Part shown: positions 21,767 to 22,281 of the stretch, one piece after another
Position numbering within the stretch: position 1 is the stretch's first letter
Layout: every line of letters begins with the position of its first letter
NCBI GenBank assembly: GCA_005191425.1
Contig: SUPR01000053.1
Location: forward strand, 1-23,929
DNA: 23,929 nt
Direction of reading: 5' to 3'
Source: Candidatus Helarchaeota ASGARD archaeon Hel_GB_B
GTDB taxonomy: Archaea > Asgardarchaeota > Lokiarchaeia > Helarchaeales > HEL-GB-B
The notes under the pieces: model-generated
The model's database searches: none
What the model was told of the DNA's origin: nothing
The model's input: the letters and a program-made list of their open reading frames with translations, nothing else
Position numbers and translations under genes: made by a program

Positions 21767-21997
21767 TACATCAACCTTTTAATAATAAAAAATTTGACCT
21801 TGTCTTTTAATTATTCCAATATTGAACCTTTTTTAACTTTACAAAAATTTATTTTTAATAATTTCAAATTATTATTGTCATATCTTGAACTTTAAATTTA
21901 TCTTGTATTTTTTTTATATTTCGTCCATTTACATTTTTGAGAATTTCTGTCCCCAATAAACTACTTAAACTTTTAATTAAAATTAATAAAAAATAAA

Positions 21998-22087
21998 AGC
22001 CGGACCCGGGTTTATCGGTCTATTCGCATTCGATCCCGGGACCTTTGCATTACCAGTGCAACGCTCTTCCAACTGAGCTAGCCCGGC
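21998..22087 (-). tRNA. tRNA-Thr(GGT) with a 17-nt intron at 59/60 (22012-22028)
   Basis: Full cloverleaf: GCCGGGC/GTCCGGC, GCTC/GAGC, TTGCA-CTGGTAA-TGCAA, CCGGG/CCCGG and U73. Removing the intron gives 73 nt. Confidence 0.95.
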
Positions 22088-22108
22088 TGATTTTAAAATT
22101 ACGATAAA

Positions 22109-22281
22109 TGGTGCAGGGAGGGGGATTTTCAATATGCATCGTATTGGTGCACTATTTTGAACCCTCGTACTCCTACGAGACAGGATCTTAAGTCAGGACG
22201 CTCTATTCAAGCGCTGTCCTGCGCCGATAGGTTGATCTCATCCAAAAATGAGACCATTTAACCGGGCTTGGCTATCCCTGC
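22109..22281 (-). tRNA. tRNA-Leu(TAA) with encoded CCA and three introns: D-loop about 21/22 (about 22227-22257), 32/33 (22192-22215) and 59/60 (22126-22155)
   Basis: GCAGGGA/TCCCTGC-A-CCA, GCC/GGC, CAGGA-CTTAAGA-TCCTG and a long variable arm CTC-GTAG-GAG. Removing 31+24+30 nt gives an 88-nt class II tRNA. Confidence 0.92.

What the first reader, a model, noticed from the sequence alone, without database searches (positions are those of the whole stretch)
21998..22087. Adjacent tRNA-Thr(GGU) also carries a T-loop (59/60) intron
A 17-nt insert TGCGAATAGACCGATAA forms the helix ATCG/CGAT with bulges AA|T and AA|A. It lies 21 nt downstream of tRNA-Leu on the same strand, probably in one transcript. 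Both tRNAs have an intron at the same unusual position, with unrelated sequences and helices matched to each host T-loop. Inference: 59/60 is a lineage-wide intron hotspot, consistent with intron gain or translocation among tRNAs. The dicistronic precursor would need four splicing events.
Basis: partly seen in the sequence, partly recalled or inferred. Interest (0 to 1): 0.65.

Follow-up and report, generated by a model that had tools for sequence, protein, structure and literature searches.

The report
T-loop intron in Asgard threonine tRNA
This is a real threonine tRNA gene of an Asgard (Helarchaeales) archaeon, interrupted in its T-loop by a 17-base intron of the protein-spliced archaeal kind. 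Such introns at this position are already published, so it is a sound annotation catch and not a new kind of thing.

Summary
On the minus strand, 21998-22087 encodes tRNA-Thr(GGU) with the 17-nt insert TGCGAATAGACCGATAA (22012-22028) between nucleotides 59 and 60. ARAGORN and Rfam miss the gene. ARAGORN calls a clean 75-nt tRNA-Thr(ggt) once the 17 nt are removed.

The insert carries CGAU, which pairs in register with T-loop nucleotides 54-57 (AUCG) next to the T stem. This gives a relaxed bulge-helix-bulge motif.

In my partial census of this genome, 11 of 35 tRNA genes have an insert at 59/60, against 12 at the canonical 37/38. The intron's pairing strand covaries with the host T-loop: TTCG-CGAA, TTCA-TGAA, ATCG-CGAT.

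- **Relatives:** a same-genus genome keeps a diverged 18-nt insert at the same site. A Helarchaeota relative has an intron-free gene. Five more distant genomes carry an unrelated 30-nt insert at 59/60 of the same tRNA.
- **Splicing machinery:** the genome encodes a two-subunit EndA with the crenarchaeal-type loop, and RtcB.

Position 59/60 introns and heavily interrupted Asgard tRNA genes with T-arm introns are published. This scan had already reported 59/60 introns elsewhere in this genome (tRNA-Glu, tRNA-Ala). Intron copying between tRNAs is not supported, and co-transcription with tRNA-Leu is plausible but untested. Interest is low.

The parts
21998..22087 (-). tRNA-Thr(GGU) gene: 73-nt mature sequence plus 17-nt intron; no encoded CCA
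   Evidence: Sequence. ARAGORN calls tRNA-Thr(ggt) after the insert is removed. Rfam tRNA matches at 28 bits, skipping the T arm. It is the only Thr(GGU) match in the assembly.
22029..22087 (-). Exon 1, tRNA nucleotides 1-59 (acceptor 5' strand, D arm, anticodon arm with GGU, variable loop, T stem 5' strand, T-loop 54-59 AUCGAA)
   Evidence: My cloverleaf parse and the ARAGORN drawing.
22012..22028 (-). 17-nt intron UGCGAAUAGACCGAUAA at 59/60
   Evidence: Its removal restores the cloverleaf. A same-genus orthologue has an 18-nt insert at the same site, 56% identical, while the exons are about 94% identical. G003 lacks the insert.
21998..22011 (-). Exon 2, nucleotides 60-73 (A60, T stem 3' strand CCCGG, acceptor 3' strand GUCCGGC, discriminator U)
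22031..22034 (-). Central BHB helix, exon strand: T-loop nucleotides 54-57, AUCG
   Evidence: Minimum-energy fold and register table.
22014..22017 (-). Central BHB helix, intron strand: CGAU, followed by the 3' bulge A-A|A60 (22011-22013)
   Evidence: The final U pairs with A54, whereas 10 other 59/60 introns of this genome end this strand in A to pair with U54.
22006..22039 (-). T arm with intron. The T stem CCGGG/CCCGG (22035-22039 and 22006-22010) serves as the outer helix of the splicing motif.
   Evidence: Fold of -9.2 kcal/mol, z = -1.9. There is a compensatory C49-G65 to U49-A65 change in G001.
22088..22108 (-). 21-nt A/T-rich spacer between the CCA end of tRNA-Leu(UAA) and tRNA-Thr
   Evidence: Sequence. 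No TATA-like element lies at about -26 from Thr +1, and there is no T run longer than 4.
22109..22281 (-). Upstream tRNA-Leu(UAA) with three inserts (D loop, anticodon loop near 32, T-loop 59/60)
   Evidence: My parse. The same Leu-Thr arrangement is present in G001.
21985..21997 (-). Oligo-T trailer UUUAUUUUUUAUU directly after the discriminator; a likely archaeal terminator
   Evidence: Sequence. Function is inferred.

Best explanation
The 17 nt are a protein-spliced archaeal tRNA intron at position 59/60 of the only tRNA-Thr(GGU) gene of a Helarchaeales (Asgard) archaeon.

In the precursor, T-loop nucleotides 54-57 (AUCG) pair with CGAU near the 3' end of the intron. This 4-bp helix stacks on the T stem. 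The two cleavage sites then lie two nucleotides 3' of the helix on each strand (AA|U and AA|A).

This is the same geometry that the anticodon stem gives a 37/38 intron. Both arms have a 5-bp stem and a 7-nt loop, so 53+6 = 59 corresponds to 31+6 = 37. That equivalence is why 59/60 is the second preferred site.

[quoted passage not shown] RtcB then joins A59 to A60, giving the T-loop AUCGAAA. Only after that can the T-loop meet the D-loop.

- **Shown:** gene anatomy, motif, covariation, orthologue pattern, and the presence of the enzymes.
- **Inferred:** actual cleavage and ligation, the exact junction, and co-transcription with tRNA-Leu.
For: 1. The cloverleaf is restored only after the 17 nt are removed.
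2. The minimum-energy fold is the T stem, then AUCG/CGAU, then a 3-nt bulge. In-register 4/4 pairing occurs in 1.1% of shuffles.
3. Ten of 11 inserts at 59/60 in this genome have 4/4 central pairs, and the intron strand covaries with the host loop: TTCG-CGAA in 6 genes, TTCA-TGAA in 3, and ATCG-CGAT in Thr.
4. G001 (same genus) keeps an 18-nt insert at the same site. That insert is 56% identical to this one while the exons are about 94% identical, and one of the exon differences is a compensatory T-stem change. This is the pattern expected of a spliced spacer.
5. This is the only Thr(GGU) gene found. ACU plus ACC make up 52% of Thr codons in 1069 long ORFs, so the gene must work.
6. EndA alpha (192 aa) matches Aeropyrum pernix EndA chain 3p1z_B at E = 2.5e-42. 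The alignment runs through the loop segment (RKPK against EKPR), and the Tyr/His/Lys spacing of 8 and 31 residues is kept (residue numbers from PMC5829648). A second paralogue has Ala in place of the catalytic His. RtcB is present.
7. APE-type EndA cleaves a 59/60 hBH mini-helix in vitro (PMC5829648).
Against: - No RNA data exist, so splicing is not shown.
- The motif is relaxed: there is no inner helix, and the 5' site sits in a 13-nt loop.
- The G001 orthologue has only 3/4 central pairs (A54 opposite G), and its minimum-energy fold uses another register.
- The intron-free G003 orthologue has the T-loop AUCGAAU, which a 60/61 junction would reproduce here.
- My census picks the split with the best BHB score and requires nucleotides 54-58 to be intact. 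It therefore leans towards 59/60 and cannot see inserts earlier in the T-loop.
Confidence: 0.85

Rival explanations
1. It is a genuine intron, but the junction is 60/61. The mature T-loop would then be AUCGAAU, as in the intron-free Helarchaeota orthologue, and not AUCGAAA.
For: The G003 orthologue has the T-loop ATCGAAT. The nucleotide after ATCGAA in the window is T. The 5' site lies in an open loop, so its position is less tightly fixed.
Against: - The BHB rule places both cuts two nucleotides 3' of the 4-bp helix, which gives 59/60.
- All 11 T-loop inserts of the genome fit that register.
- Under 59/60, G000 and G001 give the same loop, ATCGAAA. Under 60/61 they would differ, ATCGAAT against ATCGAAG.
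- Nucleotide 60 varies among orthologues anyway: T, C, G, A.
Confidence: 0.07
2. The insert is not removed. The locus is a decaying pseudogene, or a tRNA with an enlarged T-loop.
For: No expression data exist. Standard tRNA finders reject the gene. The motif lacks an inner helix.
Against: - All four stems are intact and G+C-rich in a 28% G+C genome.
- It is the only Thr(GGU) gene found, and it reads 52% of Thr codons.
- The insert site and the Leu-Thr arrangement are kept in G001, with compensatory exon changes.
- A 24-nt T-loop with nucleotides 54-57 paired could not form the T-loop/D-loop contact (established tRNA structure).
Confidence: 0.05
3. [quoted passage not shown] On this reading the Thr and Leu introns are relatives.
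For: Eleven tRNA genes of one genome share the site. The introns end in similar YGAA(A/U/C) tails.
Against: - The shared tail is exactly the part that must pair with nucleotides 54-57.
- Outside the tail, no pair of T-loop introns scores above z = 3.6, and the Thr intron scores at most 1.6 (0.6 against Leu).
- The Thr tail differs, CGAU, in the way its own loop requires.
- The preprint 10.64898/2026.10.13.758758 finds 1.5% cross-isotype intron families in Asgard against 28.3% in Thermoproteales.
Confidence: 0.03

Closest known systems
hBH intron at 59/60 of pre-tRNA-Cys(GCA) of Candidatus Micrarchaeum acidiphilum ARMAN-2 (described in PMC5829648, citing Fujishima et al. 2011)
   Same: The position is the same, 59/60 in the T-loop. 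The motif is relaxed and uses the T stem as the outer helix. A mini-helix of it is cut by the broad-specificity Aeropyrum pernix (alpha-beta)2 EndA, but not by the Archaeoglobus fulgidus or Methanopyrus kandleri enzymes.
   Different: The phylum differs (DPANN), the enzyme type differs (epsilon2 with its own loop), and the tRNA differs. The intron sequences are not related.
[quoted passage not shown] 2024, PMC11291895; Goswami et al. 2026, bioRxiv 10.64898/2026.10.13.758758)
   Same: - It concerns an Asgard genome in which most tRNA genes are interrupted, many more than once.
- Annotated introns concentrate at 37/38 and in the T arm, and T-arm inserts show the clearest BHB motifs.
- Two EndA paralogues are present.
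- The same positions are gained repeatedly.
- There is no sign of copying between tRNAs.
   Different: Those papers centre on Atabeyarchaeia and Jordiarchaeia (Freyrarchaeaceae, Jordiarchaeaceae). The preprint's main text does not name Helarchaeales or Lokiarchaeia. This particular gene and intron are not described there. In the published Freyarchaeia genome Thr(GGT) has no intron, and in Atabeyarchaeia-2 it has two.
Non-canonical BHB tRNA introns of Crenarchaeota, especially Thermoproteales (Marck and Grosjean 2003; Sugahara et al. 2008; reviewed in PMC4090602)
   Same: These are protein-spliced introns outside 37/38, and 59/60 is listed among the known sites. They depend on an (alpha-beta)2 EndA with the crenarchaeal-specific loop. 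Up to three introns occur per gene.
   Different: Thermoproteales introns form sequence families shared between different tRNAs, which suggests transposition. Here no such similarity is seen.

Membership tests
Archaeal BHB (bulge-helix-bulge) tRNA intron | An insert interrupts an otherwise complete tRNA, and its removal restores a canonical cloverleaf | tested here: met
   ARAGORN finds nothing in the native sequence and calls tRNA-Thr(ggt), 75 nt, after the 17 nt are removed.
Archaeal BHB (bulge-helix-bulge) tRNA intron | A central 4-bp helix, with both splice sites two nucleotides 3' of it on opposite strands | tested here: met
   AUCG(54-57)/CGAU gives 4/4 Watson-Crick pairs, with sites AA|U and AA|A. 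1.1% of shuffles match in register.
Archaeal BHB (bulge-helix-bulge) tRNA intron | An outer helix (h) flanking the motif | tested here: met
   The T stem CCGGG/CCCGG stacks directly on the central helix.
Archaeal BHB (bulge-helix-bulge) tRNA intron | An inner helix (h') closing both 3-nt bulges (strict hBHBh' form) | tested here: not met
   Only one possible G-C pair exists. The minimum-energy fold leaves a 13-nt loop at the 5' site. The motif is therefore the relaxed hBH-loop form, which is a recognised class (PMC5829648).
Archaeal BHB (bulge-helix-bulge) tRNA intron | A cognate splicing endonuclease able to cut relaxed or non-canonical motifs: (alpha-beta)2 or epsilon2 type with the specific loop | tested here: met
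   There are two PF01974 paralogues. The alpha paralogue matches A. pernix 3p1z_B at E = 2.5e-42 with the loop segment aligned (RKPK against EKPR) and Tyr/His/Lys kept. The beta-like paralogue has Ala at the His position. The substrate range itself was not tested.
Archaeal BHB (bulge-helix-bulge) tRNA intron | An RtcB-type ligase for 2',3'-cyclic phosphate and 5'-OH ends | tested here: met
   PF01139 match of 568 bits, with a 483-aa open frame.
Archaeal BHB (bulge-helix-bulge) tRNA intron | The insert is absent from mature tRNA | not testable with these tools
   No transcriptome is available.
Heavily interrupted Asgard tRNA gene sets | The genome belongs to Asgard archaea | tested here: met
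   The nearest named EndA-alpha loci are all Asgard MAGs. The same-order genomes G003 and G005 coincide in their coordinates with records named Candidatus Helarchaeota archaeon Meg19_1012_Bin_504 and LW55_61.
Heavily interrupted Asgard tRNA gene sets | Most tRNA genes are interrupted, many more than once, with T-arm sites prominent | tested here: met
   Of 35 tRNA genes parsed, 29 have at least one insert: 12 at 37/38, 11 at 59/60 and 1 at 58/59. ARAGORN sees only 16 genes. The census is incomplete and biased (see the Against line).
Thermoproteales-type transposed intron families | Closely similar intron sequences in different tRNA species of one genome | tested here: not met
   Pairwise scores among the 11 T-loop introns were compared with shuffles. 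The best pair reaches z = 3.6 and the Thr intron at most 1.6.

The most novel reading that the evidence does not exclude
The same site of the same tRNA, 59/60 of tRNA-Thr(GGU), carries unrelated introns in two separate lineages of one class: 17-18 nt in this Helarchaeales genus and 30 nt in five genomes of another family. The lineages between them have intron-free genes or genes interrupted elsewhere.

The most novel reading is that 59/60 is an insertion hotspot and not merely a place where introns survive. For example, the splicing machinery might work in reverse on a T arm that mimics the anticodon arm. The near-palindromic T-loop TTCGAA would help, because an insert needs only YGAA to build the central helix. 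On this reading the Helarchaeales would be a further intron-rich Asgard lineage, not highlighted in the published censuses.
Probability: 0.12. Interest if true: 0.6.

Novelty: new member of a known kind. Interest (0 to 1): 0.2.

Why it matters
- **Annotation:** the only gene for the tRNA that reads about half of all threonine codons is invisible to ARAGORN and to Rfam at its gathering score. Automatic annotation of this genome would report the tRNA as missing. More than half of the tRNA set is hidden in the same way.
- **Biology:** the gene adds one clean example, with paralogue covariation and an orthologue series, to the published picture that Asgard tRNA introns sit where a splicing motif can form. 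It also shows that the T-loop site equivalent to 37/38 is used nearly as often as 37/38 itself.
- **Limits:** it does not open a new question. How such introns arrive is already stated as open in the 2026 preprint, and this locus alone does not make that question testable.

Tried and rejected
- **Standard finders on the native sequence.** ARAGORN and Rfam at gathering score found nothing in the window. Genome-wide, Rfam gave only 26 hits even at E <= 10, so I wrote my own scanner.
- **Limits of my scanner.** It requires U8, an acceptor stem with at least 4 G-C pairs, inserts only in loops, and (in the main pass) an intact 54-58 motif. It recovered 35 genes and gave wrong anticodons for a few class II tRNAs (C124, C36, C98). 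The counts are minimum figures and not a full census.
- **BLAST of the whole gene against 40 relatives.** This found only G001 and G003. A second search with the intron-free G003 gene across 120 genomes of the class mostly returned Ile(GAU) and other Thr isoacceptors.
- **A covariance model from the three Thr(GGU) genes.** I dropped this because MAFFT misplaced the 3' T-stem strand of the intron-free gene.
- **Origin of the intron by duplication of the T-loop.** Considered and not supported. The nucleotide before the YGAA strand varies among introns (T, C, G, A), and the Thr strand is CGAU, not a copy of CGAA.
- **ARAGORN's 'tRNA-Pyl(cta)' on C76.** This is a misparse of tRNA-Gln(CUG) with a 21-nt intron at 37/38.
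- **Literature.** Marck and Grosjean 2003 is not held in the library. A full-text search for '59 60' returned mostly noise.

Full report
**What is there**

The feature lies on the minus strand. Read 5' to 3' from 22087 to 21998, the sequence is a complete tRNA except for 24 nt where a 7-nt T-loop should be: acceptor GCCGGGC/GUCCGGC, D arm GCUC-AGUUGGAA-GAGC, anticodon arm UUGCA-CUGGUAA-UGCAA (anticodon GGU), variable loop AGGUC, and T stem CCGGG/CCCGG.

ARAGORN finds no tRNA anywhere in the window, and Rfam at its gathering score finds nothing. With permissive settings the Rfam tRNA model matches 22034-22087 at 28 bits, one bit below its cut-off, by skipping the T arm.

**Is it a splicing motif and more than chance?**

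ViennaRNA folds the T arm plus insert (22006-22039) into three elements: the 5-bp T stem, a directly stacked 4-bp helix between T-loop nucleotides 54-57 (AUCG) and intron nucleotides 12-15 (CGAU), and a 3-nt bulge AAA on the 3' strand. The energy is -9.2 kcal/mol, and the same fold appears in the full precursor.

This is the geometry of the archaeal bulge-helix-bulge motif, with both cuts two nucleotides 3' of the central helix. There is no inner helix (at most one G-C pair), so the 5' site lies in a 13-nt loop. The motif is the relaxed hBH-loop form, not the strict hBHBh' form. Shuffling the 17 nt gives four in-register pairs in 1.1% of trials.

Because A58, A59 and the last two intron bases are all A, cutting at 57/58, 58/59 or 59/60 gives the same product. 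The 59/60 label follows from the motif rule.

**The rest of the genome**

The window is contig C133 of a 3.54-Mb, 28% G+C assembly that is 93.7% complete. ARAGORN sees only 16 tRNA genes in it, some with absurd 'introns'. Rfam finds 26 hits even at E <= 10.

I wrote a cloverleaf scanner that allows long inserts in the four loops and places each insert by the best BHB register. It recovered 35 convincing tRNA genes, of which 29 are interrupted. The commonest sites are 37/38 (12 genes) and 59/60 (11 genes, plus one at 58/59). The scanner is incomplete, and it cannot see inserts before nucleotide 58 of the T-loop, so these are minimum counts with a lean towards 59/60.

The 11 inserts at 59/60 are 16-58 nt long, and 10 of them have 4/4 central pairs. 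The intron strand of the central helix tracks the host loop:
- TTCG with CGAA in six genes.
- TTCA with TGAA in three genes.
- ATCG with CGAT in tRNA-Thr, the only one of the 11 whose loop starts with A54.

That is covariation across paralogues, and it is the strongest internal evidence that the pairing matters. Outside that strand the introns are unrelated. The best pair reaches z = 3.6 against shuffles, and the Thr intron reaches at most 1.6 (0.6 against the neighbouring Leu intron).

The upstream tRNA-Leu(UAA) indeed has a 30-nt insert at 59/60 (UUCA/UGAA) besides inserts in the D loop and the anticodon loop. The pair therefore needs four excisions.

**Why 59/60?**

The T arm and the anticodon arm both have a 5-bp stem and a 7-nt loop. 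A motif built on the stem, with the first four loop bases as one strand of the central helix, puts the cut after the sixth loop base. That is 37/38 in one arm and 59/60 in the other. This is inference from geometry, and every 59/60 insert is consistent with it.

**Relatives**

- **G001 (same genus):** it has the same Leu-then-Thr arrangement. Its Thr(GGU) gene has an 18-nt insert at the same place. The exons differ at about 4 of 73 positions, two of which are a compensatory C49-G65 to U49-A65 change. The inserts agree at only 10 of 18 columns. Its central helix has 3/4 pairs.
- **G003:** its EndA locus coincides in coordinates with a record named Candidatus Helarchaeota archaeon Meg19_1012_Bin_504. 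It has an intron-free Thr(GGU) with T-loop ATCGAAT.
- **G006 (same order):** it has D-loop and variable-region inserts but none in the T-loop.
- **Another family of the class:** five genomes of one genus (G042, G046, G067, G075, G117) carry an unrelated 30-nt insert at 59/60 of Thr(GGU). G058 of that genus has an insert just after the acceptor strand instead. Three genomes of another genus have a 23-nt intron at 37/38. G083, G069, G031 and G088 have no intron.

The site is thus occupied in two separate lineages by unrelated sequences. That fits repeated gain, or many losses, and matches what the 2026 preprint reports for Asgard in general.

**Is the gene needed, and can the cell splice it?**

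Two DNA searches found no second Thr(GGU) gene in the assembly. ACU plus ACC are 52% of threonine codons in 1069 long ORFs.

The genome has two EndA paralogues:
- **192-aa protein:** it matches the catalytic chain of the Aeropyrum pernix (alpha-beta)2 enzyme (3p1z_B) at E = 2.5e-42. The alignment runs through the crenarchaeal-specific loop (RKPK against EKPR), and Tyr, His and Lys keep the spacing 8 and 31 that PMC5829648 gives for the catalytic triad.
- **198-aa protein:** it has Ala where the His should be, as expected of a structural beta subunit.

RtcB is present. PMC5829648 shows that this enzyme type, and not the alpha4 or alpha'2 types, cuts a 59/60 hBH mini-helix. It also states that the loop is conserved in Asgard.

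**One transcript?**

The spacer has no TATA-like element at about -26 from Thr +1, since that position lies inside Leu. Leu is followed by no T run longer than 4, whereas Thr is followed by UUUAUUUUUUAUU. Leu has an ATAAAT element around -25. Several other tRNA pairs of this genome sit 13-34 nt apart.

Co-transcription is therefore the simplest reading, but it is untested. In G001 the spacer contains a T6 run, which could terminate some transcripts.

**What is known**

- Position 59/60 is listed among the known non-canonical sites in the review PMC4090602.
- A 59/60 hBH intron of ARMAN-2 tRNA-Cys has been used as an enzyme substrate (PMC5829648).
- Valentin-Alvarado et al. (PMC11291895) found 92-95% of tRNA genes interrupted in Atabeyarchaeia and Freyarchaeia.
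- Goswami et al. (bioRxiv 10.64898/2026.10.13.758758) report four relevant results. Annotated Asgard introns concentrate at 37/38 and in the T arm. T-arm inserts have the clearest motifs. The same positions were gained repeatedly. Copying between tRNAs is not seen.

Earlier follow-ups of this scan had already confirmed 59/60 introns in tRNA-Glu(CUC) and tRNA-Ala(UGC) of this genome, and my census found both again. What may be new is only the member: this gene, and Helarchaeales as a heavily interrupted lineage that the preprint's main text does not name.

**Verdict**

The kind is known and the interest is low.

Noticed in passing
window 22006-22039 (-); L018, L019, L106, L109-L114: A54 instead of U54 in the T-loop is shared by tRNA-Thr(GGU) of G000, G001, G003, G083, G058 and five other genomes of G058's genus. 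In this genome it also occurs in tRNA-Ile(GAU) (C163) and tRNA-Leu(GAG) (C98). Nucleotide 60 varies among the Thr orthologues (A, T, C, G). The match of AUCGAAA to the eukaryotic initiator T-loop noted in another finding is therefore only partly conserved.
   Followed up: partly
G000 C165 (Val-Gly-next tRNA), C46 (Asp-Lys), C98 (Phe-Thr-Leu), C139 (Arg-Arg): Several tRNA genes of this genome lie in same-strand clusters with spacers of only 13-34 nt. This suggests that polycistronic, multiply interrupted precursors are usual here.
   Followed up: no
G000 C76:123-216, C1:8017-8890, C165:953-2662: ARAGORN misparses interrupted genes. Its 'tRNA-Pyl(cta)' is tRNA-Gln(CUG) with a 21-nt intron at 37/38. 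Its 783-nt and 1632-nt 'introns' are far longer than any of the 9-58-nt inserts in my parsed set and are probably artefacts.
   Followed up: partly
L110-L114 (G046, G042, G067, G117, G075): Five genomes of another family of the same class carry a nearly identical 30-nt insert at 59/60 of tRNA-Thr(GGU). It has 3/4 central pairs and is unrelated in sequence to the 17-nt insert of the window. A congener (G058, L109) instead has an insert right after acceptor position 7.
   Followed up: partly
L018 1592-1614 (G001 spacer between Leu and Thr): In the same-genus genome, tRNA-Leu ends in ATCA and not ACCA. The 23-nt spacer to tRNA-Thr contains a T6 run, which could act as a terminator between the two genes.
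   Followed up: no
T-loop inserts listed: The usual T-loop start TTCGAA is a palindrome, so an insert at 59/60 needs only YGAA to build the central helix. I saw no sign that the inserts arose by duplication of the loop.
   Followed up: partly
L137-L144 (G001, G003, G004, G005, G006): Four of the five same-order genomes searched (G001, G003, G005, G006) have both a strong EndA-alpha match (63-78% identity) and a weak second match (27-32%), consistent with a two-subunit enzyme across the order. In G004 (82% complete) only a weak match (33% identity) was found.
   Followed up: no
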